This document shows positions 28,075 through 63,197 of a stretch of DNA of 64,000 bases, one piece after another. Source of the stretch: a virus. Its lineage: Duplodnaviria; Heunggongvirae; Uroviricota; Caudoviricetes. Where the stretch lies: positions 1-64,000 of the IMG/VR virus record IMGVR_UViG_3300018878_000133; one strand, written 5' to 3'. Both the position numbers and the translations under genes were made by a program. Position 1 is the first letter of the stretch; every line of letters starts with the position of its first letter. A model generated the notes under the pieces. The model searched no databases. It was not told the origin of the DNA and saw only the letters and a program-made list of their open reading frames with translations.

Positions 28075-29772
28075 ATGTCTGCAAAAAAGATTACAACGCG
28101 AATTCAAAATAAGCATGACTTAGAAGTAAATTGGCTTAACGCTACTAATTTTAAACCTCTTGCAGGTGAGATCGTCGTTTATGATACCGAAGTAGACGAA
28201 AATGGAAACGTCCTAGTTGATGCTGAAGGTAATCCAAAATTACCGAAGAATAAAGATGGCACATACAGCAGAACTGAGCCATATACCTATGAACGTATGA
28301 AGATTGGTGACGGTAGAACTCCAGTAAATAAGCTACCTTTTTTTGGTATTGAACAAAAGTCCGAGGAAAGGTATGCTCCAATGGAAGTTGGAGATACAAC
28401 AACTTATGGTATTAGATGGCTTGGCGCAGCATCTATTCCGGAAATAGAAAATCTTCCAATTGCCGAAGGTCTTGATATCTTTAAATGCGTAGATAATACT
28501 GGATATGAAGGAACCTTTAGTATTTGGTACTATGACGATATGGGACAAAGAATTTATCAAACATTTCCCGGAATCAATGGTGCCGTGGATGTCTCTGGAA
28601 TGGACTTTTACAGTTCTTGGCAGCAATTGTTAAAAGAAGATTCTTCTAATGCGTTTGGTTACATGGACCCTCCAGAAACGCTCGGTATTACTTCTATAGA
28701 GATTACTTGGATTGCAGATTGGGCAAAACCTTATTTAGAGATCTACAAAGAAGTACGTATTGAAGACCAATATGTATCCTTTGACTCTCAAAAGTTGACA
28801 GAAGAACAAAAAGCTCAGGCAAGAGAAAATATTGGTCTGCCGCCAGATATATTAGAGCCAGTTATTTTTTCAAAATGGATTGATGGTAATACAGACTATT
28901 CAGATAGTTCAGATGGTATAAAAATTACTGTTGATAGTATTGACACACCTATTTATACATATGCAGATCCAAGTATAGACGGTGCATGGGCTTATTGTTT
29001 TCGAGTAAATAATATAGACTTTGGCTATGTTTCAGGCCTTTATGATTTAATCTACTTCCCAGCTAATAAGAACAATCCTGCAACTTTTACATTAAGAGAT
29101 TTTATTAACTCATTTAGTGCTAGCAGCATTTTATCAGAAACCTCTGCTCCGTATACAATAACGATTACTTCTGACGCAGGAGAGTCTGGTGAAGGTTACA
29201 TCTATGCATATGCTGATAAGAAAAGATTGCGCATAGATACAGATAAGTCTTTAACTCACGATGGTCTTGCAGCGGACGCTAAAGTTGTTGGAGACACTAT
29301 TAATAACCTTGTATCCTGTGAGTATGAATTTGAAGAAACTTCTATTAGCACTATACAAGAAATTACACAAGAACATATTGACAATGGCTTATACTGGAGA
29401 AGGTTTGACGTTGGTGTGGATGATTTTGGTTGTGGTTTATATGGCGAAGACGGTAGCACCCTTAGTTTTGACTATACGGAAGAGCGCGTTGAATCAACTG
29501 ATTCATCTATTACACTAAAAGTAATATTACCCCAAGCAGCACTAGGTCAATTTATTATGATTGACTGGTGGAATGAAAGTGGTGAAGAAGTAAAAGATCC
29601 TTGTTTCCTTAATTCTAAGCCTAAAAATATAAAAATAGGTAATATAAATATTAATATAGCTACTGATGAAGATGTAATGGAAATTTTATCAACTGTGTGT
29701 AGTCTTGAGCCCGTAACAACATCAAACGGTGCTATTCTAACTGATAATAGTGGTGCTGTTTATACAATTTAA
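28075..29772 (+). CDS. tail fibre/receptor-binding protein with N-terminal fibre motif
   Basis: 'IQNKHDLEVNWLNATNFKPLAGEIVVYD...MKIGDGRTPVNKLPF'; 565 aa. Confidence 0.65.
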   Translation: MSAKKITTRIQNKHDLEVNWLNATNFKPLAGEIVVYDTEVDENGNVLVDAEGNPKLPKNKDGTYSRTEPYTYERMKIGDGRTPVNKLPFFGIEQKSEERYAPMEVGDTTTYGIRWLGAASIPEIENLPIAEGLDIFKCVDNTGYEGTFSIWYYDDMGQRIYQTFPGINGAVDVSGMDFYSSWQQLLKEDSSNAFGYMDPPETLGITSIEITWIADWAKPYLEIYKEVRIEDQYVSFDSQKLTEEQKAQARENIGLPPDILEPVIFSKWIDGNTDYSDSSDGIKITVDSIDTPIYTYADPSIDGAWAYCFRVNNIDFGYVSGLYDLIYFPANKNNPATFTLRDFINSFSASSILSETSAPYTITITSDAGESGEGYIYAYADKKRLRIDTDKSLTHDGLAADAKVVGDTINNLVSCEYEFEETSISTIQEITQEHIDNGLYWRRFDVGVDDFGCGLYGEDGSTLSFDYTEERVESTDSSITLKVILPQAALGQFIMIDWWNESGEEVKDPCFLNSKPKNIKIGNININIATDEDVMEILSTVCSLEPVTTSNGAILTDNSGAVYTI

Positions 29773-47352: not shown

Positions 47353-47377
47353 TATATTTTATTGTAATATATTTATA

Positions 47378-47399
47378 GAGACTATGCTTATTTCTTAAC
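47378..47399 (+). repeat. repeat family copy 3 (TAGAGACTATGCTTATTTCTTA)
   Basis: Same core motif, directly upstream of the permuted tRNA-like element. Confidence 0.5.
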
Positions 47400-47408
47400 G
47401 CCTTTTAA

Positions 47409-47480
47409 GCGGGTGGTCGTTGGTTCGAATCCAACCATTTCATCTGTTAGGTGAAATGTAGCTCAGCGGTAGAGCACCTT
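47409..47480 (+). ncRNA. permuted tRNA-like element (T-arm + 3' acceptor strand joined by a 5-nt loop to 5' acceptor strand + D-arm)
   Basis: 'GTTGG-TTCGAAT-CCAAC CATTTCATC tgtta GGTGAAATG TAGC-TCAGCGGTA-GAGC'. GGTGAAA pairs with TTTCATC (one G-U) across a closing loop; no anticodon arm. Confidence 0.4.
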
Positions 47481-47569: not shown

Positions 47570-48230
47570 GTTAGGTGCCACGAAGCGTTGGTTTAGGCTG
47601 TGATTTAAGGTCAACGCCTAACTCTAGCGAAGAAGCAGCAGTGGTAAATGGAGTGTGATGAACAGCCTTAAATTGGTTTGTAAGTGTTGAAAACCTTTCA
47701 ATGAGATAAGTAATGCTTATGAGATTGATAAAAAACTTAAAAAAATAAATTCGGTTGAACTCCGATATGTCTATGAGGATGCACTGTGGAATAGATGATT
47801 AGTTGGATGCTCCGTAAGGGTCATTACAAGGTCATTTCCTCATAGATGAACCGCCCGCAGGCCATTAACTAGCATAGGCCGTTCCGTTTTATTATTGGCG
47901 GATGATTAAGGACAGTAGGGACAACTTCGCCTGCCGAGAGAATGAAGCTCGCTCAGGTAAAAGCCATAAGCTATCTGGTAACAGAACGTGGAATTAATGA
48001 TGAGAGATAAGTTGTCAGATAATCAGTGGGAAAGATTATCATTTATTCCGTAGTGAGTATAAAGCCATATTAGAATACGCTACAACGTACAACTTTGGAA
48101 ACGGACGCCTGTACAGCGTGACCCAAAGGTAGCAGAGTTTAGGCATAATAGTTTAATGGTAGAACACGGCCGAGTGTTGGGCTGGGTGGCGGTTCAATTC
48201 CGAATGTTGCCGACCAAAAAGAAAAACTCT
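47570..48230 (+). ncRNA. ORF-free GC-elevated structured segment (candidate large ncRNA/intron-like element)
   Basis: ~660 nt with no ORF >=60 aa in any frame. TGTATAAT promoter at 47565; long-range inverted repeats (GCGTTG...CAACGC; TCTATGAGGA...TCCTCATAGA); contains a tRNA-like 5' half (GGCATAATAGTTTAATGGTAGAAC) near its end. Confidence 0.35.
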
Positions 48231-48505: not shown

Positions 48506-48644
48506 GCGGGATTGGCGGAATAGGCAGACGCAAGGGACTTGCTTGATGACATAGTGTCTATCTAGTAGGGGCAGTACCTACATCAAGTACCAAAAATCCC
48601 TCGGTAGTGATACCGTATCGGTTCAAGTCCGATATCCCGCACCA
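48506..48644 (+). tRNA. tRNA-Leu-like gene with ~52-nt insertion in the anticodon loop
   Basis: Acceptor GCGGGAT/ATCCCGC + ACCA; Leu-type D-arm TGGCGGAATAGGCAGACGC; long variable hairpin CGGTAGTGATACCG; T-arm ATCGG-TTCAAGT-CCGAT. Anticodon stem AGGGA/TCCCT encloses 59 nt, including a 7-bp hairpin CTTGATG...CATCAAG. Confidence 0.5.
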
Positions 48645-48727: not shown

Positions 48728-48804
48728 GGACCATTAGCTCAGTTGGTTAGAGCTCCCGGCTCATAACCGGTCGGTCCTAGGTTCGAGTCCTAGATGGTCC
48801 ACCA
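48728..48804 (+). tRNA. tRNA-Met (anticodon CAT)
   Basis: GGACCAT-TA-GCTC-AGTTGGTTA-GAGC...CTCATAA...CTAGG-TTCGAGT-CCTAG-ATGGTCC-A-CCA; clean cloverleaf. Confidence 0.85.
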
Positions 48805-48809
48805 TATAT

Positions 48810-48897
48810 ACGCCATTAGCTCAGCGGTGAGGGCACTGGTCTTATACACCACGGTAATCTTCGGGATTGCGAGGTTCGACTCCTCGATGGCGTACCA
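48810..48897 (+). tRNA. type-II (long variable arm) tRNA with apparent TAT anticodon
   Basis: Acceptor ACGCCAT/ATGGCGT, D-arm GCTC-AGCGGTGA-GGGC, anticodon arm CTGGT-CTTATAC-ACCAC, 17-nt variable hairpin with TTCG loop, T-arm CGAGG-TTCGACT-CCTCG, ACCA. Confidence 0.55.
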
Positions 48898-48965: not shown

Positions 48966-49117
48966 GGCGCGTTGGTCAAGCGGTTAAGACACCGCCCTTT
49001 CGTTAGATTAGCCAAAAGGTAAGGCAGGCCACTAGAGATAGAGGTTATGTGTCAGTTCGAGTCTGACATCTAGCACCAACGGCGGTATCACGGGTTCGAT
49101 TCCCGTACGCGTCACCA
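48966..49117 (+). tRNA. tRNA-Glu-like gene (anticodon-loop CTTTC..AC) interrupted by a 77-nt tRNA-shaped insertion
   Basis: Outer gene GGCGCGT-TG-GTCAAGCGGTTAAGAC-A-CCGCC-[..]-GGCGG-TATCA-CGGGT-TCGATTC-CCGTA-CGCGTCA-CCA. Insert 49012-49088 has its own acceptor GTTAGAT/ATCTAGC, D-arm GCC-AAAAGGTAA-GGC, T-arm GTCAG-TTCGAGT-CTGAC and terminal ACCA. Confidence 0.5.
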
Positions 49118-52812: not shown

Positions 52813-52910
52813 CACGATATAGCTTATGTGGTAAAGCATCCGAATCCCAGGAAAAAGACCAAGATTGATTTCTTGAAGATAAGTAGGTTCAAGTCCTGCT
52901 GTCGTGTCCA
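52813..52910 (+). ncRNA. over-long tRNA-like element (~97 nt) without a canonical anticodon arm
   Basis: Acceptor CACGATA/TGTCGTG + T-CCA, D-arm GCTT-ATGTGGT-AAGC, T-arm GTAGG-TTCAAGT-CCTGC. The 44-nt central region forms CAAGA-TTGATT-TCTTG instead of a 5+7+5 anticodon arm. Confidence 0.35.
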
Positions 52911-54986: not shown

Positions 54987-55062
54987 ATTTTATATTCCTC
55001 GTTAGTCCAGTAGGTAGAACGGCGGACTGTTAATCCGTATGTCGGTGGTTCGAGTCCACCAC
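54987..55062 (+). tRNA. tRNA-Asn (anticodon GTT)
   Basis: TCCTCGT-TA-GTCC-AGTAGGTA-GAAC-G-GCGGA-CTGTTAA-TCCGT-ATGTC-GGTGG-TTCGAGT-CCACC-ACGAGGA-G-CCA. Confidence 0.85.
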
Positions 55063-55630
55063 GAGGAGCCAGGTGGGTTTCGTAGAGTTACCGTTGAATA
55101 ACTATGTGCTTGTCGTTTTAAGAAACGAGTGGGTATAAAGCCCCACAAATATCAAATAGTAAGGGCACATGCGAGCTATGAAACCAGAAGTTAAGTAGTG
55201 AAGGAAGCATGGGTGTGGCTGGTTACCGCTTTATCAAAAATCATAGTGTTAACTATGTGAGGTAAAGATGTCTATGTGGTGATATCTACTGTGAACTGTT
55301 GTGCGAGTTCACCTATTTGATAGGGCTGGTTGAAAGACCCTGGTCCATCGAGTAAGGGAACATATCCCTTAACAAAATCCTTAATGGTCATTGTGCTGAC
55401 AATGTGGTAATCTGAAACATAGAATTTTGGTGTAAAGACTAAAATGTTTGGGCAAACGATAAATGCTCCCAAATTTGCTTATTAAGGAATAAGATAGTTG
55501 GCAGACAACGATAAAATCAGTTATAGCCTGTACCCTTGAGAAACTCGTATCAGGTAATTTATATTACTGTGGATAAGCAGGCAAGTAGTGAAATAAAAGG
55601 GTAAGAGAATAAACTACATTATAAAATATA
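55063..55630 (+). ncRNA. ORF-free GC-elevated segment (candidate structured RNA)
   Basis: ~570 nt between tRNA-Asn and tRNA-Met-like. No plus-strand ORF >=60 aa; only a 66-aa minus-strand ORF of doubtful reality. Many G/C-rich local hairpins (e.g. GGGTATAAAGCCCCAC). Confidence 0.3.
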
Positions 55631-55850: not shown

Positions 55851-55936
55851 GGCAAATTGGTGTAAGGTAGCATAAGACAGAATGCCCTATCAACGGGATT
55901 GGATTGTCAGGAACTAGTTCGAGTCTAGTATTTGTC
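55851..55936 (+). tRNA. tRNA-like gene with ~16-nt insertion in the anticodon loop
   Basis: Acceptor GGCAAAT/ATTTGTC (no CCA), T-arm ACTAG-TTCGAGT-CTAGT; anticodon stem GACAG/TTGTC encloses a 23-nt loop containing the mini-hairpin GCCC-TATCAAC-GGG. Confidence 0.4.
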
Positions 55937-56168: not shown

Positions 56169-56313
56169 GGCTCCGTAGTTCAGATGGTTAGAACGCCTGC
56201 CTGTGCTTTATTAGTTTAATAGTAAAACACTCTTATAAAGAGATGCTAGTGCAAGACTAGTATAAGGCTCCACACGCAGGAGGTCGTCGGTTCGATCCCG
56301 ATCGGAGTCGCCA
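56169..56313 (+). tRNA. tRNA (anticodon-loop remnants CTGTG..AC or CT..CACAC: His/Val-like) interrupted by a 68-nt tRNA-shaped insertion
   Basis: Outer gene GGCTCCG-TA-GTTC-AGATGGTTA-GAAC-G-CCTGC-[75-nt loop]-GCAGG-AGGTC-GTCGG-TTCGATC-CCGAT-CGGAGTC-G-CCA. Insert carries acceptor-like CTTTAT/ATAAGG, D-arm-like GTTT-AATAGTA-AAAC and T-arm-like CTAGT-GCAAG-ACTAG. Confidence 0.5.
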
Positions 56314-56665: not shown

Positions 56666-56705
56666 CCTAGTTAGTAATGCAGCTGCTACTAAGTTACTAA
56701 CTAGG
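56666..56705 (+). promoter_or_regulatory. large imperfect palindrome overlapping RBS/start region of the GIY-YIG gene
   Basis: CCTAGTTAGTAA-tGCAGCTGCtactaag-TTACTAACTAGG; 12-bp perfect arms around the palindromic GCAGCTGC core. Confidence 0.5.
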
Positions 56706-56713
56706 TGATTCTT

Positions 56714-57385
56714 ATGGCTTATATTTATAAAATTACAAATAATCTTAATGGCAAGGCTTACATAGGTCAAACACTTTATTCATTAGAAAAAAGGTTTGCA
56801 GAGCATTTAAAAGACAGCGCTAGAACTGGTCACAGTAAAAGACCTCTGTACAAAGCTATGTTAAAGTATGGTTATTCAGCTTTTACTATAGAAGTTGTTG
56901 AAGAACTAGCTGATGATCCAGAGCTTTTAAATGACCGAGAAATTTATTGGATTACGAAATTTCATACTTTTTGTAAAGATCCGCTTGGTCCTGGTTATAA
57001 CGCTACTTTGGGTGGCGGAAGCAAGATGCTTTATGATAGACGCGCGATTATTCAGTATTTACGTAATAATAATTGTGTTAAGGATGCTGCAGAAGTTTTT
57101 AAGTGCACAAAAGACACAATTATCGATATTGCTAAAGCTGCTAATATTCAAGTTAAGTCTAGCCCGGATTTAGTAAAAGAGCTTTATAGTAAACCAATAA
57201 ATATTTATGATTTAAAAAATAATTTAATTCATAGTGTTACTAATTCTTATGAAGCTGAGCAGTGGATTCGAGATAGTGGTATTTCTGATGCTAAAGGCGG
57301 CGCAATTAGAGCTCACATTCTAGAGGTTTGCAAAGGTAAACGAAAAACTGCTTATGGCTTTATATGGAGATACTTGAAAGATTAA
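56714..57385 (+). CDS. GIY-YIG homing endonuclease (free-standing, seg-like)
   Basis: 'YIYKITNNLNGKAYIGQT...RFAEH' GIY-YIG catalytic motif at the N-terminus and a basic C-terminal DNA-binding region. Track ORF starts at GTG 56705; the ATG at 56714 is preferred. Confidence 0.8.
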   Translation: MAYIYKITNNLNGKAYIGQTLYSLEKRFAEHLKDSARTGHSKRPLYKAMLKYGYSAFTIEVVEELADDPELLNDREIYWITKFHTFCKDPLGPGYNATLGGGSKMLYDRRAIIQYLRNNNCVKDAAEVFKCTKDTIIDIAKAANIQVKSSPDLVKELYSKPINIYDLKNNLIHSVTNSYEAEQWIRDSGISDAKGGAIRAHILEVCKGKRKTAYGFIWRYLKD

Positions 57386-57750: not shown

Positions 57751-58450
57751 AATATCAACAATTTGTACCTTGAAAGATAAATATAATTACTAACTCAGTG
57801 CTAAACACAAGACACGCTTCTTGTGCTGAGAATGCAACTAAGCGAAAGCTGAACAATGTGTGATGGTAACATAAGAGGGATACCTCGGAAACCGCGCTAC
57901 TTATATATGCGAGTATATGAGTTAAGGGTAGGACCCGAAACATATGTTGTATGTGCTGATGTTATAGCAAGTAATGGTAGGAAGAGTCTCGTGAGAGTAA
58001 TAGAAAGCTTGGTTAATAGCTGAGCCGAATCCAAGTTAGGGTTTAGTTGGTGACTGTATTACACCTTGGAAATGCCAATAATCTCATTTGTCGTGAACCA
58101 TAGAAATGTGGGTATAAGAGATTCAAGTAACCTCCTAGTAGCCGAAGACAATTAACAAAGAATTAATGCTAGTATATAATTAGGAATACTGATATTAATT
58201 TTTTCTGAATAGACGGTGAGGGGTGCAGGTAATCAATCCTGTCATAGTTTATGTAGTCCAGGGCTTGGCCGTTAACCAAGTACCCAGATTTCGTGGCAAG
58301 AAGTTAGGGGTCGCTCCCCGAAGCTCAGACTTGTCATCTATGTGACCGAATGTACTTGAATATAACAAGTGGTAAGGCGAAGGCCTAGGAATGTATTATA
58401 TTTATCTTTGAATGTATAAGGTGTACCTCCTTTGTTTATTTTGCAAGGAT
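57751..58450 (+). ncRNA. candidate long non-coding RNA (promoter-to-terminator unit without ORF)
   Basis: ~700 nt, GC noticeably higher than flanking DNA, bounded by the TTGTATAAT promoter and a strong intrinsic terminator. No plus-strand ORF >=60 aa. Confidence 0.35.
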
Positions 58451-58492: not shown

Positions 58493-58579
58493 TTTATTGT
58501 ATGATATTATAGTAAAAGTTTATGATCAAGTAATGATGAATTGGAATATCTTTATCGATTATGTATGGGAGAATTTAAA

Positions 58580-59131
58580 ATGAAAAAACCATTAGTTGTT
58601 AATTTAACAGGAGCTCCAGGTGCTGGAAAAAGCACTGGTGCAGCAACTATTTTTGCAGAGCTTAAAAAAGCTGGTGTTAATGCAGAACTTGTAACAGAAT
58701 TTGCTAAAGATAAGACCTGGGAGCATAATATTATGGCTCTAGGTTGTCAAGAATATGTGTTTGGTAAACAGTCTTATAGATTACGTAGATGCCGAGATGA
58801 TGTCGATGTGATTGTGACTGATAGCCCGCTTCCTCTTAGTATTATTTATAATACTAATCCTGCAATAACTGAGTCTTATCCAAGGTTAGTCATGGATGTT
58901 TATAATACATATGAAAATATTAATTTCTTTATTAACAGAGTTAAACCTTACAACCCTAAAGGCCGAAATCAGACAGAAGAAGAAAGTGATCGTATAAGTG
59001 TCCGCATTAAAGATTTATATAAAGGTCTTGGTATTGATTATTTTGAAATTAACGGCGATAATGAAGGTTATGACTATGCAGTTAAGACTGTATTAAGCAT
59101 ACTAGCAGGAGGTATAAAATATGAGTACTAA
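58580..59131 (+). CDS. P-loop NTPase (NadR/AAA_28-like kinase fold)
   Basis: Walker A 'LTGAPGAGKSTGAA'; Walker-B-like 'VDVIVTDSPL'; RBS GGGAGAA 7 nt upstream of the ATG at 58580. The track ORF begins earlier at 58541. Confidence 0.55.
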   Translation: MKKPLVVNLTGAPGAGKSTGAATIFAELKKAGVNAELVTEFAKDKTWEHNIMALGCQEYVFGKQSYRLRRCRDDVDVIVTDSPLPLSIIYNTNPAITESYPRLVMDVYNTYENINFFINRVKPYNPKGRNQTEEESDRISVRIKDLYKGLGIDYFEINGDNEGYDYAVKTVLSILAGGIKYEY

Positions 59132-59975
59132 AGATGCACTTGGTGATAGAATGAAAGAATTCTATGAAAATAGGAGTAAACATTATCTACCTAGACGAGT
59201 TCCTGTAATCATTAGACTTGACGGCAAAGCTTTCCACACCTTCACTAAAGGTCTTAAGAGGCCTTATGACGAGATTTTCCACAATACTATGAATGCGACT
59301 ATGAAGTATCTCTGTGAGAATATCCAGGGTTGTAAGCTTGGTTATACACAGTCAGACGAAATCACTCTTCTTCTCACAGACTATGACACTCTTGATACCG
59401 ATGCTTGGTTTGGTTATAATGTGCAGAAAATGTGCAGCGTGTCAGCAAGCATGGCAACAATGGTTTTCAATAAGTATCTTAGAGAATTAATTGATAATTA
59501 TTTACAGTCTGATGTATGGGTAAACCATTATTGGGAAGAAGATGTTGAGAAATATGCTAATACATTAAAGAAGGCTATTGACAATGGTGCAATGTTTGAT
59601 TCTCGCTGTTTTAACATTCCTAAAGAAGAAGTTACCAACTGCTTCATCTGGCGTCAGCAGGATGCTACTCGCAACGCAATTCAGATGCTTGGTCAGTGCA
59701 ACTTCTCTCATAAGGAACTACACGGTAAGTCTTGCAATGACATTCAAGATATGTTAATGACTCAGAGAGGTATCAATTTTAATGATATGCCTACTGAGTT
59801 TAAACGTGGTGTCTGCTGTAATCGTGTAGAAAAAGAAGATATTTGTATTGATTTTAAAACAAAAGAAGAGACTCGCTGTATGAGAAGTGAATGGGTAATC
59901 GATAAAGAAATTCCCATTTTTACTCAAGATAGATACTACATTGAACGGTGGGTTTACTCAGAAGGAGATAAATAA
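59121..59975 (+). CDS. Thg1-like protein (tRNA-His guanylyltransferase / 3'-5' nucleotidyltransferase family)
   Basis: 'VPVIIRLDGKAFHTFTKGL..PYDE.F...M' and 'GYTQSDEITLLL' match the Thg1 palm-domain signatures (V.RIDG..FH.F...F.KP.D; GESDEYSF). Confidence 0.7.
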   Translation: MSTKDALGDRMKEFYENRSKHYLPRRVPVIIRLDGKAFHTFTKGLKRPYDEIFHNTMNATMKYLCENIQGCKLGYTQSDEITLLLTDYDTLDTDAWFGYNVQKMCSVSASMATMVFNKYLRELIDNYLQSDVWVNHYWEEDVEKYANTLKKAIDNGAMFDSRCFNIPKEEVTNCFIWRQQDATRNAIQMLGQCNFSHKELHGKSCNDIQDMLMTQRGINFNDMPTEFKRGVCCNRVEKEDICIDFKTKEETRCMRSEWVIDKEIPIFTQDRYYIERWVYSEGDK

Positions 59976-60767
59976 ATGCCTAAGCTTTTTGTTGTTTCTG
60001 ATATTCACAGTTTCTTAGAACCACTTAAAAATGCTTTAGACAGAGCAGGTTTTGACCCTAATAACGAAGAACACTGGCTGATTTCGTGCGGCGATTGCTT
60101 TGATAGGGGTCCTAATAGTATTGAATTGTTGCACTATTTAATGTCGCTTGAGCGAAAGATTCTAGTAAAAGGTAATCATGACCTACTTTTTGACGATCTT
60201 TGCGCAAGATGTTTTCCATATAGCCACGATAAGTCTAATGGCACTGTAAGAACTGTTCAAGACCTCGGTGGAAGTCCTCTTCCGGCGGATTTTGCTAAGT
60301 GCTGTGATACAGCTTTGAATAAAACGGCAGCGTATCGCGACCTACTTGTAAACTATTTTGAAACTGAAAAGTATATTTTTGTTCATAGTTGGATTCCTAC
60401 TATTACTCATTATGATAAAGGTGCTAGTAAGCCTTGGCACCAGGTTGGAAAATACTACGAATACAATGAGAACTGGCGTAATGCTTCCGAGGTAGAGTGG
60501 GAAGAAGCTATGTGGGGTAATCCTTTCTGGAAAGCACAAGACGGTATGAACAAAACCGGTAAGACAATCGTATTCGGACATTGGCATTGTTCTTTAGGTC
60601 ATTTATGCGATAGTCAAGGTGAGCTATCAGAGTTTGGTGATGATGCCAAGTGGGATCCGTACTTTAACGAATCTCAAGGAATCATCGGCATTGATCGCTG
60701 TACTGCACATACTGGTGAAGTTAACGTACTAGTTTTAGATGATAATTTTATTGGAGGCGATAATTAA
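59976..60767 (+). CDS. calcineurin-like metallophosphoesterase
   Basis: 'VVSDIHS', 'CGDCFDRGPNS', 'VKGNHDLLF', 'GHWH' match MPP motifs I-V (DxH, GDxxDRG, GNHD/E, GH). Confidence 0.75.
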   Translation: MPKLFVVSDIHSFLEPLKNALDRAGFDPNNEEHWLISCGDCFDRGPNSIELLHYLMSLERKILVKGNHDLLFDDLCARCFPYSHDKSNGTVRTVQDLGGSPLPADFAKCCDTALNKTAAYRDLLVNYFETEKYIFVHSWIPTITHYDKGASKPWHQVGKYYEYNENWRNASEVEWEEAMWGNPFWKAQDGMNKTGKTIVFGHWHCSLGHLCDSQGELSEFGDDAKWDPYFNESQGIIGIDRCTAHTGEVNVLVLDDNFIGGDN

Positions 60768-61101
60768 CATGGTTGCTTTTAGTAAAGAAGTTTTTATCGA
60801 GACTTTAAATAAGATTAAAGACGGCTATAAACGCCGTTCAAAGTTTGAAAAAGCTGTAACTGAAGTTTGTGATTCGTTTTTTATTTGTAATGTAGGGCAG
60901 GAGTGGCTAGACCAGCTAATAAAAGTTCTTGAGTTCGGCATGAATGATTTGCCTAATAGAAAATATGGTTCAGTAATTAGTTGGTGGCTTTGGGAAAATG
61001 TTGATAAGAAGATCTGGTGTGAAGCTGATGGAGTAAAATATGAAAAAGACCTCACTACTCCTGAAGCTTTATACGATTATTTAGTAGAAAAAGCTGGTTA
61101 A
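60739..61101 (+). CDS. hypothetical protein
   Basis: 120-aa ORF overlapping the upstream gene's end; followed by a terminator. Confidence 0.4.
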   Translation: MIILLEAIINMVAFSKEVFIETLNKIKDGYKRRSKFEKAVTEVCDSFFICNVGQEWLDQLIKVLEFGMNDLPNRKYGSVISWWLWENVDKKIWCEADGVKYEKDLTTPEALYDYLVEKAG

Positions 61102-61127
61102 TTTTTATAACCAGCTTTATTTTTTCA
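61092..61127 (+). terminator. rho-independent terminator
   Basis: AGCTGGTTA-atttt-TATAACCAGCT followed by TTATTTTTT. Confidence 0.7.
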
Positions 61128-61174
61128 TTCTTTATAGTGTATTATATTATAGAATAACTTATTGAGGTGTTAGT

Positions 61175-61615
61175 ATGGCAAACAAATATGCTTGGTCGCG
61201 AAGAAGTGACGATGAAATTTGGCGGGGTGGACCGTGTGACTCGATACGAGAGTGTGTAGAGGAAGCTCAATGGGAAGAATATAAGTTAGAAGATACTTTC
61301 GCTCTTGGTCTTATTGAAAACTATGAGGTCAATTATGACTTTGCTCAAGATATTGTCGAAAGACTTTGTGAAGATGCTTGGGATGAAGTCGGTGAAGCTT
61401 CTGACGGTTGGCTTGACAGCGCTAAAAGAGAACAGTTAGATCTTTTAAATGAACGAATCGCACCTATTGTTAAAGAATGGCTGAAAGAGATAGGAGAACA
61501 GCCTAGCTTTTATAAGGTGTTGCCTTTTGAAGAGTGTACTCTCAAGGAAGCCTTAGATATTCATAATGAAAAAGTAGCAAACATGTCAAGAGGCGGCAAA
61601 ATAGAAAATCAATAA
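61175..61615 (+). CDS. hypothetical acidic protein
   Basis: 146-aa ORF with RBS GAGGTG. Confidence 0.45.
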   Translation: MANKYAWSRRSDDEIWRGGPCDSIRECVEEAQWEEYKLEDTFALGLIENYEVNYDFAQDIVERLCEDAWDEVGEASDGWLDSAKREQLDLLNERIAPIVKEWLKEIGEQPSFYKVLPFEECTLKEALDIHNEKVANMSRGGKIENQ

Positions 61616-61656
61616 TACATAATAAAATAAATTAAATATAAGGAAGGTATTTAAAA

Positions 61657-61932
61657 ATGTTTATTCTTAGTGGTGGTAAAGGTATTGGTAAAACTAAAAC
61701 TTTGATTGAGCGAGTAAAAGCTGAAGATGGTATTCTTATTTGTGAGGATACGACTGCTATGCGAGAGCGTGCATATGGTTATGGTATTACTGGACTTAAT
61801 TTAATGTCTTATGACGAATTGTATGCGTGCCCGATTGAGAGCTATGATAAACCTATTTACATTCATGATATTAATAAGTTTATTAAATGTGGTTTCCATG
61901 AAGTTAAAGGATATAGTGTTTGTAATGAATAA
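61657..61932 (+). CDS. small protein with Walker-A-like 'SGGKGIGKT'
   Basis: 91-aa ORF; RBS AAGGAAGG. Confidence 0.4.
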   Translation: MFILSGGKGIGKTKTLIERVKAEDGILICEDTTAMRERAYGYGITGLNLMSYDELYACPIESYDKPIYIHDINKFIKCGFHEVKGYSVCNE

Positions 61933-62155
61933 TAAAAATTATTTATATGCAGTGCGTGATGCTTCGACAGGTAAGCTCGTAAGAGATATTACCAACCCTG
62001 GACATAAGTTTTGGGAAAAGCGTGGAAATTGCCAGAAAGCAATTGATGAGTATAATGATAAATTATCTGGTAATGGTTCTATGCGTTATTTTAGAACTAA
62101 ATACGAAGGCCCATTGGAGCTTGTTACTTTTGAGCTTGTTGAAGTAAAAGAATAA
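61925..62155 (+). CDS. hypothetical protein (start ATG 61925 preferred over overlapping 61811 start)
   Basis: Track ORF 61811..62155 overlaps the previous gene. The internal ATG ('MNNKNYLYAV...') abuts the upstream stop (TAATGAATAA). Confidence 0.4.
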   Translation: MNNKNYLYAVRDASTGKLVRDITNPGHKFWEKRGNCQKAIDEYNDKLSGNGSMRYFRTKYEGPLELVTFELVEVKE

Positions 62156-62164
62156 TGGTTTTAA

Positions 62165-62202
62165 AGAAAGTTGGTTAATTATGCCAACTTTCTTTTTATT
62201 TT
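62165..62202 (+). terminator. rho-independent terminator
   Basis: AAAGTTGGTTAATTATGCCAACTTT hairpin followed by CTTTTTATTTT. Confidence 0.7.
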
Positions 62203-62245
62203 GTTGTATTATATATTATTGATATAAAAATTGGAGGACTTTATT

Positions 62246-62410
62246 ATGAAAAAGGAAGCATCTATTGATAGAAGAATGTTTAAAAAATCACCTGAAGAAC
62301 TTGAACTCTACATGTATTTCAAAAAACGTGGCTTCAAGCTTGAGAACAAAAAGGGAAAGGGCTCTTATGAGCGCCGTCCTAAGCATATTTGGAGGTTTTT
62401 AAATGACTGA
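62246..62410 (+). CDS. small basic protein (54 aa), translationally coupled to downstream NTase
   Basis: RBS TTGGAGG 7 nt upstream; stop TGA overlaps the next ATG (ATGACTGA). Confidence 0.4.
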   Translation: MKKEASIDRRMFKKSPEELELYMYFKKRGFKLENKKGKGSYERRPKHIWRFLND

Positions 62411-63197
62411 AAGAGAACTTAAGATTTGTGAAAGACTAAAGCACGATTATAATTATGTGAAAAATCAAGGATATGAAGTTTTTGGCATATTTTTGCAAGG
62501 CTCACAGAATTATCAGTTGGATTATGAAGGCAGTGATATCGATACAAAGTGCATTGTTCTGCCTTCCGCTGAAGACCTTATTTTAAATAAGCAGCCTACA
62601 AGTACTACTCTTATATTAGAAGACAATTCACACATTGATTTAAAAGATATTAGACTTATGTGGCAATGTTTTAAGAAGCAGAACGTAAACTACCTTGAGA
62701 TTTTATTTACTGAGTTCTTTTACGTACCGCGCGACTACTTTTATTTTTGGCTCGAGATGCTTAGAATTAATGAGGATATCGCACACATTGATAATTATGC
62801 TGCTGTAAATTGTATCGTCGGTATGATCTTAGAGAAGAACGCTGCTTTGTGTCATCCTTATCCTACGTTAAAAGACAAGATTGATAAGTATGGATATGAT
62901 AATAAACAGCTTCACCATATTATTAGATGTAGAGAATTTCTTGACAGATACATTGATGGTGTATTATACAAAGATTGTCTAATTCCATACGACCGTGAAT
63001 ACTTAATTAGTGTAAAAGCTAATTATAGATATGATTTAGATCAAGCAAAAGCTATTGCAAAAGAAGCTGTTGACTATGCTAAAGCTAGAAAGCAGGCTTA
63101 TATAGATACTAATGAACGTAAGGTAGCTGAAGATACTTGTAACAGAATGGACTGTATTTTAGTAGATATCCTAACTAAATACTGGACGGAGAATTAA
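62403..63197 (+). CDS. Pol-beta-superfamily nucleotidyltransferase with helical C-terminal domain
   Basis: 'FGIFLQGSQNYQLDYEGSDIDTKCIV' matches the GS-x(9-13)-[DE]h[DE]h NTase active-site signature. Confidence 0.6.
   Translation: MTERELKICERLKHDYNYVKNQGYEVFGIFLQGSQNYQLDYEGSDIDTKCIVLPSAEDLILNKQPTSTTLILEDNSHIDLKDIRLMWQCFKKQNVNYLEILFTEFFYVPRDYFYFWLEMLRINEDIAHIDNYAAVNCIVGMILEKNAALCHPYPTLKDKIDKYGYDNKQLHHIIRCREFLDRYIDGVLYKDCLIPYDREYLISVKANYRYDLDQAKAIAKEAVDYAKARKQAYIDTNERKVAEDTCNRMDCILVDILTKYWTEN

What the first reader, a model, noticed from the sequence alone, without database searches (positions are those of the whole stretch)
56169..56313. Second interrupted tRNA (His/Val-like) with a 68-nt tRNA-shaped insertion
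Acceptor GGCTCCG/CGGAGTC-G-CCA, D-arm GTTC-AGATGGTTA-GAAC, anticodon stem CCTGC/GCAGG and T-arm GTCGG/CCGAT are all intact. The anticodon loop is 75 nt. Its ends read CTGTG...AC and also CT...CACAC, so anticodon GTG (His) or CAC (Val) is possible depending on the exact insertion point. The insert folds as CTTTAT/ATAAGG with D-like GTTT-AATAGTA-AAAC and hairpin CTAGT-GCAAG-ACTAG. This is an independent instance of the phenomenon at 48966.
Basis: seen in the sequence. Interest (0 to 1): 0.75.

Follow-up and report, generated by a model that had tools for sequence, protein, structure and literature searches.

The report
tRNA nested inside a phage tRNA
A jumbo-phage tRNA-Asp gene has its anticodon split by a complete but anticodon-less tRNA-like unit, one of several such "tRNA-in-tRNA" genes, which looks like an undescribed kind of tRNA intron that would need cutting and re-ligation to give a working tRNA.

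Summary
Positions 56169-56313 hold an intact tRNA body (Rfam tRNA, 50.5 bits) with a 68-nt insert at 56205-56272.

The tRNA is Asp(GUC), not His or Val. Empty alleles in related phages read CUGU|CAC, the gene order Asn-Met-Asp-Thr-Ala is conserved, and the discriminator is G73.

The insert runs from G+1 through a 7-bp acceptor stem, D arm and T-like arm to N73-CCA. On its own it passes Rfam's tRNA threshold (40.5 bits), but its anticodon arm is collapsed.

The window holds two more nested genes, Leu(UAA) at 48506-48644 and Glu(UUC) at 48966-49117. A second jumbo phage (L226) carries the same Asp and Leu inserts plus one in Asn.

Between the two phages, the outer tRNAs show 11 two-sided compensatory changes and the Leu insert shows 3. 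These are therefore not pseudogenes.

They are not group I introns, BHB introns or transposons. I found no homologous nested gene in GenBank phages, IMG/VR or GTDB genomes, and no description in the literature.

My best reading is an enzyme-dependent intron. RNase P would cut 5' of the inner tRNA, an endonuclease would cut after NCC(A/G), and an RNA-repair ligase would seal the loop. All three steps are inferred, and no ligase gene was found in the DNA I could reach.

The parts
56169..56204 (+). 5' exon of tRNA-Asp(GUC): acceptor 5' strand, D arm, anticodon-stem 5' strand and loop nt C32 U33 G34 U35
   Evidence: Sequence. Rfam tRNA hit 56169-56310, 50.5 bits. Alignment with empty alleles.
56205..56272 (+). 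68-nt nested tRNA-like insert, proposed to be an intron. It runs from G+1 to T73-CCA.
   Evidence: Gap in five uninterrupted Asp alleles falls exactly here. Alone it scores 40.5 bits on Rfam tRNA, GA 29. An 88%-identical orthologue sits at the same site in L226:6739-6806.
56205..56211 (+). Inner acceptor-stem 5' strand, GCTTTAT. It pairs with 56262-56268 (ATAAGGC).
   Evidence: 7/7 pairs. Two one-sided, pair-preserving changes in L226: G-C to G-U and U-G to U-A.
56214..56228 (+). Inner D arm, GTTT-AATAGTA-AAAC
   Evidence: alignment. The 20-mer TTAGTTTAATAGTAAAACAC is identical in free-standing phage tRNAs and tRNA-like genes L230-L234.
56230..56242 (+). Collapsed anticodon arm. It reads either as hairpin CTCTT-ATA-AAGAG, or, in Infernal's reading, as a 2-bp stem with loop CUUAUAA.
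   Evidence: In L226 it re-registers as CTTG-TTA-CAAG.
56245..56261 (+). Inner T-like arm, GCTAGT-GCAAG-ACTAGT. It is contiguous with the inner acceptor 3' strand.
   Evidence: Identical in L226.
56262..56272 (+). Inner acceptor 3' strand ATAAGGC, then discriminator T, then CCA. This is the end of the insert.
   Evidence: Sequence. L226 has ATAAAGT-T-CCG. All six inserts end in N-C-C-A/G.
56273..56313 (+). 3' exon of tRNA-Asp: C36 A37 C38, anticodon-stem 3' strand, variable loop, T arm, acceptor 3' strand, G73, CCA
   Evidence: Three compensatory double changes in the outer stems relative to L226.
48966..49117 (+). Second nested gene: tRNA-Glu(UUC) with a 77-nt tRNA-like insert at 49002-49078, between nt 36 and 37
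   Evidence: Rfam 49.5 bits. Insert alone 41.2 bits. BLAST and MAFFT against empty alleles break at 49001|49002 and 49078|49079.
48506..48644 (+). Third nested gene: tRNA-Leu(UAA) with a 52-nt minimal tRNA-like insert at 48541-48592, between nt 34 and 35. The insert has an acceptor stem, a small hairpin, a T arm and A-CCA.
   Evidence: ARAGORN -i. Orthologue at L226:185-323 with 3 compensatory changes in the insert and 8 in the outer tRNA.
58541..63197 (+). Neighbouring RNA-end-repair genes, possible trans factors only: P-loop kinase (58541-59131), Thg1-like 3'-5' polymerase (59121-59975), metallophosphoesterase (59976-60767) and Pol-beta-type nucleotidyltransferase (62403-63197). A Pnkp-like kinase + HD protein lies just past the window end (L082:14356-15300).
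   Evidence: Pfam, PHROG and NCBIfam hits. GS...DxD motif. The same cassette occurs in relatives without inserts, so it is not specific to them.

Best explanation
The locus is the phage's tRNA-Asp(GUC) gene. Its anticodon is split between U35 and C36 by a 68-nt unit that is itself a whole tRNA-derived molecule. That unit has G+1, a 7-bp acceptor stem, a D arm, a T-like arm and N73-CCA, but its anticodon arm has collapsed so it cannot decode.

It belongs to a small family of 'tRNA-in-tRNA' genes in at least two related ~215-220 kb gut jumbo phages: Leu-UAA, Glu-UUC and Asp-GUC here, and Leu, Asn-GUU and Asp in L226.

I think the insert acts as an enzyme-dependent tRNA intron that uses the cell's tRNA end-processing machinery.
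- Step 1 (inferred): bacterial RNase P recognises the inner acceptor/T-arm helix with its N73-C74-C75 tail. It cuts between U35 and inner G+1, leaving a 3'-OH on the 5' exon.
- Step 2 (inferred, enzyme unknown): an endonuclease of the RNase Z/BN type cuts just after NCC(A/G), leaving a 5'-phosphate on the 3' exon.
- Step 3 (inferred): the two exons are held together by the outer acceptor and anticodon stems. An ATP-dependent RNA ligase of the anticodon-loop repair kind (T4 Rnl1-like) seals them, restoring the 7-nt loop CUGUCAC.

Shown: the architecture, the boundaries, the tRNA identity, the conservation and covariation, and the absence of ribozyme, BHB and transposon features. Inferred: every enzymatic step, and that splicing happens at all.
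For: 1. Outer gene. Rfam gives a full-length tRNA match. Empty and filled alleles define the insert as 56205-56272, leaving CUGU|CAC. Synteny and best matches say Asp.

2. Inner unit. The Asp, Glu and Asn inserts alone pass the Rfam tRNA gathering score at 40.5, 41.2 and 30.7 bits. All six inserts start with G, have a 7/7-bp terminal stem and end in N-C-C-A/G. The joint chance is about 3e-21.

3. Control. Among 880 tRNAs in 3.8 Mb of fetched loci, 27 distinct ARAGORN 'intron' calls were tested, and only the four from these two phages (one from L082, three from L226) meet the nested-tRNA criterion.

4. Selection. Between the window and L226, the outer Asp and Leu tRNAs show 3 and 8 two-sided compensatory changes and no broken pair. 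The Leu insert shows 3 compensatory and 2 wobble changes and no break. The Asp insert shows 3 pair-preserving changes. The loop remnants are identical in both phages.

5. RNase P determinants (established knowledge of bacterial RNase P): U at -1 in 3 of 4 insert families, G+1 in all, a 12-13-bp acceptor/T coaxial stack, and C74-C75 conserved even where A76 became G.

6. The nested double cloverleaf lies within 0.2-3.2 kcal/mol of the unconstrained MFE.

7. In this window these are the only genes for Asp, Glu and Leu-UAA. They serve the phage's 2nd and 3rd most used codons (GAT, GAA) and a top Leu codon. The most used codon, AAT (Asn), is the one interrupted in L226.

8. RNA-end-repair genes flank the cluster. 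According to PMC7824862, such kits in jumbo phages normally go with RNA ligases.
Against: - There are no RNA data, so splicing is not shown.
- No RNA ligase gene was found in the ~70 kb I could read. The other ~150 kb of the contig was out of reach.
- The 3' cut has no assigned enzyme. In Bacillus-type hosts CCA is known to inhibit RNase Z. The Glu exons are 92-95% identical to Firmicute tRNA-Glu, so the host may be of that type.
- Two inserts end in CCG rather than CCA.
- The folding energies of the isolated inserts are only modestly better than shuffles, with z of -1.1 to -2.05.
- The Leu insert alone matches no Rfam family.
- Only two phage lineages carry the feature, and covariation rests on pairwise comparisons.
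- The repair cassette also occurs in relatives without inserts.
Confidence: 0.5

Rival explanations
1. The insert is a protein-spliced intron, but a dedicated endonuclease from the phage or host removes it, not RNase P. That enzyme would recognise the tRNA-like fold, or a short helix that brings the two splice sites together. It would leave 2',3'-cyclic phosphate and 5'-OH ends. The neighbouring kinase and phosphoesterases would heal these ends, and a ligase would seal them, as in archaeal/eukaryal tRNA splicing or T4 Pnkp/Rnl1 repair.
For: Healing enzymes lie next to the cluster: a P-loop kinase, a metallophosphoesterase and a Pnkp-like kinase + HD protein. An alternative fold pairs U35 with A76, G34 with C36 and U33 with A37, which places both splice sites in one short helix (constrained fold). 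Related phages carry a different, 470-nt anticodon-loop intron that is too short to hold both its 426-nt ORF and a group I core. That hints at a general protein-dependent pathway.
Against: No candidate endonuclease was identified. There is no bulge-helix-bulge motif. The splice-site helix is only 3-5 bp with wobbles and fails for Glu (C36·A76). The healing genes are equally present in relatives without inserts. The conserved acceptor/T-arm/NCC features are exactly what RNase P reads.
Confidence: 0.2
2. The insert is never removed. The 145-nt RNA works as a two-domain tRNA-like molecule, for example as a decoy for tRNA-targeting host toxins or a regulator. Alternatively, RNase P processing simply releases a functional tRNA-like small RNA and tRNA halves.
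For: Covariation shows only that both folds matter, not that they are joined. A free-standing homologue of the Asp insert with the same closed anticodon arm exists in another phage contig, L231:2474-2551. So such anticodon-less tRNA-like RNAs may have a role of their own.
Against: The loop remnants rebuild exactly the canonical 7-nt loop with the anticodon that fits each body, in four different tRNAs. They are unchanged between the two phages although the stems have drifted. The window has no other gene for these heavily used codons, while relatives keep intact genes at the same positions.
Confidence: 0.15
3. These are tRNA pseudogenes, inactivated by junk insertions or by illegitimate recombination within the tRNA cluster.
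For: This phage's cluster is smaller than that of relatives. It lacks Val, Phe, Cys, His and Arg genes and contains tRNA remnants.
Against: There are 11 two-sided compensatory changes and no broken pair in the outer stems since the split from L226. All stems are intact and Rfam scores are about 50 bits. The boundaries are exact mature-tRNA ends in four independent cases.
Confidence: 0.05
4. One reading: a tRNA-His(GUG) or tRNA-Val with an intron at or near the canonical 37/38 position, or a small self-splicing or self-cleaving ribozyme intron.
For: ARAGORN places the intron so as to read GTG. The loop ends do allow GTG, GAC or CAC on paper.
Against: The body, synteny, G73 and empty alleles all say Asp. 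There is no G-1/C73 as expected for His. No ribozyme or group I family reaches E<=10 on the inserts, or E<=1 over 48.6-58.6 kb. At 52-77 nt the inserts are too short for a group I core.
Confidence: 0.03

Closest known systems
Archaeal/eukaryal protein-spliced tRNA introns (bulge-helix-bulge, EndA/Sen endonuclease + RtcB/Trl1 ligase)
   Same: A short ORF-less intron in the anticodon loop that must be cut at both ends by proteins and re-ligated. The exons are held together by the mature tRNA fold.
   Different: There is no BHB motif. The positions are 34/35, 35/36 and 36/37, inside or beside the anticodon, rather than 37/38. The intron is itself a tRNA-like molecule with an NCCA end. The setting is a bacteriophage, and to my knowledge no splicing endonuclease has been reported for bacteria or their phages.
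Bacterial and phage group I introns in tRNA anticodon loops (tRNA-Leu(UAA), tRNA-fMet, including the I-Ssp6803I-bearing intron)
   Same: A bacterial-type tRNA gene is interrupted in the anticodon loop. tRNA-Leu(UAA) is one of the targets. A homing-endonuclease gene of the group I intron type (GIY-YIG) lies 400 nt away.
   Different: The inserts are 52-77 nt (133 nt in L226), against more than 200 nt for a group I core. There is no Rfam group I match. Four of the six inserts lack a terminal G. The fold is a cloverleaf, not P1-P9.
tRNA-like 'punctuation' elements cut by RNase P and RNase Z (mitochondrial tRNA punctuation, MALAT1/mascRNA, plant t-elements)
   Same: A tRNA-shaped unit embedded in a longer transcript, where the tRNA end-processing enzymes define both ends.
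   Different: In those cases the flanks are separate RNAs and are not re-joined. Here the flanks are the two halves of another tRNA and would have to be ligated.
Phage T4 anticodon-loop repair (PrrC cleavage, Pnkp healing, Rnl1 sealing)
   Same: A broken anticodon loop in an otherwise folded tRNA is re-sealed by a phage RNA ligase. Healing-type genes are present next to this cluster.
   Different: In T4 the break is damage inflicted by the host. Here the break would be programmed by the gene's own structure. No ligase has been found yet.
Split, tri-split and circularly permuted tRNA genes (Nanoarchaeum, Caldivirga, Cyanidioschyzon)
   Same: Disrupted tRNA genes whose mature product needs non-standard processing. 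Permuted genes also use RNase P and tRNase Z on an intermediate.
   Different: Those rely on BHB-type junctions and occur in archaea or algal nuclei. None has a tRNA nested inside the anticodon.

Membership tests
tRNA (Rfam RF00005), outer gene | Full-length cloverleaf match above the gathering score | tested here: met
   56169-56310, model 1-71, 50.5 bits against GA 29.
tRNA-Asp(GUC) | Anticodon GUC in a 7-nt loop once the insert is removed, orthology to Asp genes, and the E. coli-type identity set G73, G10, C38 (recalled from the literature) | tested here: met
   CUGU|CAC. The top 7 matches are all Asp at 73-83%. Order Asn-Met-Asp-Thr-Ala. G73, G10 and C38 are read directly from the sequence. 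Aminoacylation is not testable here.
tRNA (Rfam RF00005), the insert itself | Cloverleaf match above the gathering score | tested here: met
   Asp insert 40.5 bits, Glu insert 41.2, L226 Asn insert 30.7. The Leu insert gives no hit.
Decoding tRNA, the insert itself | 5-bp anticodon stem with a 7-nt loop | tested here: not met
   The Asp insert has a 2-bp stem or a closed 5-bp/3-nt hairpin. The Glu insert has an irregular hairpin with a GAGA loop. The Asn insert has 72 extra nt. The Leu insert has no anticodon arm at all.
Group I intron | Conserved P3-P8 core (more than about 200 nt) and a terminal G | tested here: not met
   No Intron_gpI hit at E<=1 over 48.6-58.6 kb, or at E<=10 on the inserts. 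Length 52-77 nt. The last base is A in 4 of 6 inserts.
BHB (archaeal/eukaryal) tRNA intron | Two 3-nt bulges separated by a 4-bp helix that carry the splice sites, usually at position 37/38 | tested here: not met
   The predicted folds show an inner 7-bp stem with a 3-5-nt 5' strand and a 6-8-nt 3' strand, and no 3-4-3 motif. The sites are 34/35, 35/36 and 36/37.
Transposon / MITE / IS-type insertion | Target-site duplication, terminal inverted repeats, and multiple near-identical copies | tested here: not met
   There are no direct repeats at the junctions. The inserts share no significant sequence with each other or with other loci. They trace to different tRNA types.
Bacterial RNase P substrate | Acceptor/T-stem coaxial helix of about 12 bp, 3' N73-C74-C75, G+1, and U preferred at -1 | tested here: met
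   The sequence features are present in all six inserts, with U-1 in Asp, Asn and Leu and C-1 in Glu. Actual cleavage is not testable with these tools.
Ligase-dependent tRNA splicing or repair system | An RNA ligase gene (Rnl1, Rnl2 or RtcB) in the phage or host | tested here: inconclusive
   None was found among the ORFs scanned in the window and L082.

The most novel reading that the evidence does not exclude
These are a new class of tRNA intron, 'tRNA-derived introns', and the first enzyme-spliced tRNA introns in the bacterial/phage world. RNase P plus a 3' tRNA endonuclease would excise them, and a phage RNA-repair ligase would join the exons.

They may also have arisen at the RNA level. 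Every insert runs exactly from a mature tRNA 5' end to its CCA end. The inserts derive from different tRNAs (a UAU-type and a Gln-type). All of them sit within or next to the anticodon. One scenario fits all three facts: mature tRNAs were mis-ligated by the repair ligase into anticodon loops opened by a host anticodon nuclease, and were then copied back into the phage genome.
Probability: 0.2. Interest if true: 0.92.

Novelty: new variant of a known kind. Interest (0 to 1): 0.82.

Why it matters
Bacterial and phage tRNA introns known so far are self-splicing group I introns. Protein-spliced tRNA introns are regarded as an archaeal/eukaryal trait. A tRNA gene whose intron is another tRNA-like molecule, defined by mature tRNA ends, would add a new category of disrupted tRNA gene.

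If it is spliced, it adds a new splicing route built from tRNA end-processing plus RNA repair. That would link phage RNA-repair ligases to routine tRNA maturation rather than only to damage control.

It would also affect annotation. Standard tRNA finders miss these genes or mis-assign them as His, Sec or Gly, yet they serve the phage's most used codons (GAT, GAA, AAT). The idea is directly testable with RNase P, a ligase and one in-vitro transcript.

Tried and rejected
- **IMG/VR pattern scans for interrupted tRNAs.** The Asp pattern gave one chance hit. The Glu pattern gave none. The Leu-insert T-arm pattern gave none.
- **JGI metagenome scan.** The Asp pattern I used was too loose.
- **GTDB genome scan for interrupted Asp.** 23 hits, all chance matches or tandem/partial tRNA-Asp duplications.
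- **BLAST of whole interrupted genes against GenBank phages.** Only the exons match, and they match uninterrupted tRNAs.
- **BLAST of the inserts against all fetched loci and each other.** Nothing significant.
- **ARAGORN on the inserts alone.** Only marginal calls at lowered thresholds.
- **Looking for closer relatives.** The nearest relative of the lysozyme-like ORF on a usefully long contig (84% identity, L221) has empty Leu and Glu sites, and L222 and L224 show no nested gene. The nearest Thg1 relatives are 84% or less. L237 is cut just before the cluster. L228 and L235 have no nested genes.
- **Looking for an RNA ligase, RNase Z-like enzyme or reverse transcriptase** among ORFs near the cluster. 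None was found. The 264-aa protein is a Pol-beta-type NTase by motif and has no informative PDB match. I did not model it.
- **tblastn of ORF 28075-29772 against GenBank phages.** No match, so no cultured relative and no host assignment.
- **A 400,000-shuffle simulation** timed out. I replaced it with an analytic estimate.
- **Rejected explanations:** group I intron or ribozyme, BHB intron, MITE, pseudogene, and His/Val identity.
Full report
**Context.** The window is part of a jumbo phage of about 220 kb. A protein look-up finds the same sequence at 100% identity on a 220,267-bp ENA contig (L082) and on other contigs of 0.2-1 Mb. Positions 48.5-57.7 kb on the + strand hold a tRNA cluster. A ROOL RNA and a set of RNA-end-repair genes follow it. 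GenBank phages share only individual tRNAs with the window, and one structural ORF has no GenBank phage match at all. G+C is 36%.

**Checking the observation.**
- Rfam's tRNA model matches 56169-56310 over its whole length at 50.5 bits against a gathering score of 29. It treats a long stretch in the anticodon loop as an insertion. The same holds for 48966-49114 at 49.5 bits.
- ARAGORN without introns misses both genes. With introns allowed it reports them, plus a third interrupted gene at 48506-48644.

Four lines of evidence fix it as Asp(GUC).
- The joined exons have tRNA-Asp genes as their seven best matches among the tRNAs of related phage loci, at 73-83% identity.
- Related jumbo phages were reached through homologues of a lysozyme-like ORF inside the cluster and of the Thg1-like gene. 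They have syntenic clusters with the order Asn-Met-Asp-Thr-Ala. The interrupted gene sits in the Asp slot.
- MAFFT alignment of the interrupted gene with five uninterrupted Asp alleles places the gap at exactly 56205-56272. All alleles read CUGU-CAC across it.
- The discriminator is G73, as in tRNA-Asp.
- By the same tests the other two genes are Glu(UUC), split 36|37 by 49002-49078, and Leu(UAA), split 34|35 by 48541-48592. For Leu the class II body allows only that boundary.

**What is the insert?** With the boundaries fixed independently by the outer tRNA, every insert has the same anatomy.
- It begins with G. Its first 7 nt pair perfectly with the 7 nt that precede its last four, and those last four are N-C-C-A or N-C-C-G.
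- For the Asp insert this gives GCTTTAT / ATAAGGC + T + CCA. Between them lie UA, a D arm (GTTT-AATAGTA-AAAC), a short closed hairpin where the anticodon arm should be, and a T-like arm that abuts the acceptor 3' strand.
- The insert alone scores 40.5 bits on the Rfam tRNA model over the full model. The anticodon stem is reduced to 2 bp around a CUUAUAA loop.
- The Glu insert alone scores 41.2 bits and has a canonical T loop, TTCGAGT. The Leu insert is a minimal version with acceptor stem, small hairpin, T arm and ACCA, and it matches no Rfam family.
- The chance of G+1, a 7-bp terminal stem and CC at -3/-2 is about 5e-6 to 1e-5 per insert, and about 3e-21 over four independent inserts.
- As a control, ARAGORN 'intron' calls of 35 nt or more were collected from 880 tRNAs in 3.8 Mb of fetched loci. 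Of the 27 distinct ones tested, only the four from these two phages (one from L082, the copy of this window, and three from L226) satisfy the criterion.
- The nested double cloverleaf lies within 0.2 (Glu), 0.6 (Leu) and 3.2 (Asp) kcal/mol of the unconstrained minimum-energy fold. The isolated inserts are only modestly more stable than shuffles.

**Comparative evidence.** Most relatives have uninterrupted Leu-UAA, Glu and Asp genes at the same positions (L214-L225, 70-84% identity in the lysozyme-like protein). One phage differs: L226, a 213.5-kb ENA contig with a Thg1-like protein 79% identical.
- It carries the same 68-nt insert at the same site in tRNA-Asp, and the same 52-nt insert in tRNA-Leu(UAA).
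- It also has a 133-nt insert between nt 35 and 36 of tRNA-Asn(GUU). That insert again runs from G+1 through a perfect 7-bp stem and a TTCAAGT T arm to T-CCG, and scores 30.7 bits as a tRNA.
- Its Glu gene is uninterrupted, whereas the window's Asn gene is uninterrupted. The inserts thus show presence/absence variation.
- Between the two phages the Asp exons differ at 11 of 77 positions and the insert at 8 of 68. For Leu the figures are 18 of 87 and 9 of 52.
- In the outer tRNAs there are 3 (Asp) and 8 (Leu) two-sided compensatory changes and no broken pair.
- In the Leu insert there are 3 two-sided compensatory changes (acceptor pair 2, hairpin, T stem) and 2 wobble changes, with no break.
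- In the Asp insert there are 3 pair-preserving one-sided changes. The middle hairpin re-registers.
- The loop remnants next to the inserts are identical in both phages.
- Both the outer tRNA and the nested tRNA-like fold have therefore been under selection since the insertion. These are not pseudogenes or artefacts.

**Where do the inserts come from?** They are not copies of one element. They share no significant sequence with each other or with any other fetched locus, and no GenBank phage contains them.
- The 20-nt D-arm segment of the Asp insert is identical in free-standing phage tRNAs of the UAU type with long variable arms (L230, L232, L234).
- The same segment occurs in an odd free-standing tRNA (L233).
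- It also occurs in a free-standing tRNA-like gene (L231). That gene has the same closed anticodon arm, the same following AGAGAT, and a T-CCA end.
- The D arm of the Glu insert is identical to that of phage tRNA-Gln(UUG) genes in over a hundred IMG/VR contigs.
- Different tRNAs have thus ended up, each from exactly position +1 to the CCA end, inside the anticodons of other tRNAs. There are no target-site duplications.

**What it is not.**
- No ribozyme or group I family reaches E<=1 across 48.6-58.6 kb, or E<=10 on the inserts. The inserts are too short for a group I core.
- No bulge-helix-bulge motif can be drawn, and the sites are not 37/38.
- Pattern scans of IMG/VR and of one genome per GTDB species found no other interrupted Asp or Glu gene of this kind. 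My metagenome scan was uninformative because the pattern was too loose.
- Five full-text literature searches found reviews of disrupted tRNA genes (introns, split, permuted) but nothing on a tRNA nested in a tRNA or on phage tRNA introns of this type.

**How it most likely works.** The features kept by selection in the inserts are G+1, a 7-bp acceptor stem stacked on a T stem, N73-C74-C75, and U at -1 in three of four families. From established knowledge, these are the features bacterial RNase P reads in a pre-tRNA. C74-C75 stay constant even where A76 has become G.
- I propose that RNase P cuts at the 5' end of the inner unit, giving a 3'-OH on the 5' exon.
- A second endonuclease would cut after NCC(A/G), giving a 5'-phosphate on the 3' exon.
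- An RNA ligase of the anticodon-loop-repair type would join the exons, which the outer tRNA fold holds in place.
- RNase Z/BN-type enzymes are known to cut after CCA in some bacteria. This is recalled from the literature and was not tested here.
- The phage encodes healing-type enzymes next to the cluster: a P-loop kinase, a metallophosphoesterase, a Pnkp-like kinase + HD protein, a Thg1-like enzyme and a Pol-beta NTase. A survey of jumbo phages reports that such sets go with RNA ligases (PMC7824862).
- I found no ligase in the 70 kb I could read. The cassette is also present in relatives without inserts. All enzymatic steps are inference.
- The interrupted tRNAs serve the three most used codons of the window's ORFs: AAT, GAT and GAA, with Asn interrupted in L226 rather than here. 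They also serve a leading Leu codon, TTA. This argues that they must be made functional, and it fits an element that survives by sitting in indispensable genes.

**Rivals.** In order of weight:
- Excision by an unidentified dedicated endonuclease, followed by healing and sealing.
- No splicing at all, with the composite RNA or the released tRNA-like RNA having its own role. The free-standing homologue L231 keeps this open.
- Pseudogenes, which the covariation contradicts.
- The His/Val or ribozyme reading, which alleles, synteny and Rfam contradict.

**Verdict.** The finding is real, and its identity is corrected to tRNA-Asp. The insert is a complete anticodon-less tRNA-like unit. The architecture recurs in four tRNA species across two phages under purifying selection. 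I could find no precedent for it. The mechanism is a testable proposal, not a result.

Noticed in passing
window 48506-48644: A third nested gene that neither finding mentions: tRNA-Leu(UAA), split 34|35 by a 52-nt minimal tRNA-like insert (48541-48592; GCTTGAT...ATCAAGT-A-CCA). Default ARAGORN misses it.
   Followed up: yes
L226 5977-6185: tRNA-Asn(GUU) in the related phage is split 35|36 by a 133-nt tRNA-like insert that ends in T-CCG. The insert itself has about 72 extra nt where its anticodon arm should be. The window's Asn gene (54996-55071) is the empty allele.
   Followed up: partly
L221 8836-9382 and L235 666-1215; empty allele at window 48728-48804: In related phages a tRNA-Met(CAU) is split 36|37 by an insert of about 470 nt that encodes a 141-aa PDDEXK_5 nuclease, which I recall as I-Ssp6803I-like. 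Only about 40 nt are non-coding, too little for a group I core. Its first bases together with the anticodon (CATTTC) can pair with its last six (GAAATG).
   Followed up: partly
window 57770-58406 (also L226 7516-8156): A full-length ROOL RNA (286 bits) lies directly after the last tRNA of the cluster and is conserved in position in L226.
   Followed up: no
window 55322-55368: A match to the DUF3800-XI RNA motif just above its gathering score (40.1 against 37.8), in a spacer of the tRNA cluster.
   Followed up: no
window 52813-52910 (orthologue L222 3958-4055): An odd 98-nt tRNA-like gene (Rfam 35 bits) with about 20 extra nt after the D arm and a hairpin CAAGA-UUGAUU-UCUUG with a 6-nt loop. 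It is conserved at 90% in L222, with compensatory changes in the acceptor and T stems and UUGAUU changed to UUAAUU in the loop.
   Followed up: partly
window 55851-55933, 48144-48212, 47375-47475: Further tRNA-like sequences that ARAGORN does not call. One is 93% identical to an odd tRNA-like gene of L214. One is 88% identical to a gene ARAGORN calls a UUA 'stop' suppressor tRNA in L220. The third consists of fragments resembling Asn, Lys and Met tRNAs.
   Followed up: no
window 56705-57385: A GIY-YIG homing endonuclease of the 'group I intron endonuclease' subfamily (TIGR01453, 77.7 bits). It stands free between tRNA-Thr and tRNA-Ala, 400 nt downstream of the interrupted Asp gene. Relatives lack it at this spot. 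It could drive co-conversion of the neighbouring insert.
   Followed up: partly
window 58541-63197 and L082 14356-15300: An RNA-end-repair gene set: P-loop kinase, Thg1-like protein, metallophosphoesterase, Pol-beta NTase with a GS...DxD motif, and a Pnkp-like kinase fused to an HD domain. No ligase was seen among them.
   Followed up: partly
window ORFs (33 ORFs, 15,323 codons): The three most used codons are AAT, GAT and GAA. These are the codons read by the tRNAs that carry nested inserts in this phage or in L226.
   Followed up: partly
L231 2474-2551: A free-standing tRNA-like gene in an unrelated IMG/VR contig shares the D arm, the closed anticodon arm, AGAGAT and the T-CCA end of the Asp insert. 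It follows a terminator-like hairpin and is not inside any tRNA.
   Followed up: partly
window 48810-48897; L230 4540-4632: tRNA(UAU) genes with an unusually long variable arm (88-93 nt), which is not expected for an Ile-type tRNA.
   Followed up: no
L214 9530-9651, L221 7408-7530, L235 2661-2783: A conserved tRNA-like gene of about 123 nt (acceptor CTCTTTG/CAAAGAG + A + CCA, class II-like D arm) with about 35-45 extra nt in the anticodon region. BLAST found no counterpart in the window.
   Followed up: no
L269, L270, L282, L311: ARAGORN reports tRNA-Leu(CAA) genes with inserts of about 1.68 kb in the anticodon loop in several gut phage contigs. These are possibly ORF-bearing group I or II introns.
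   Followed up: no
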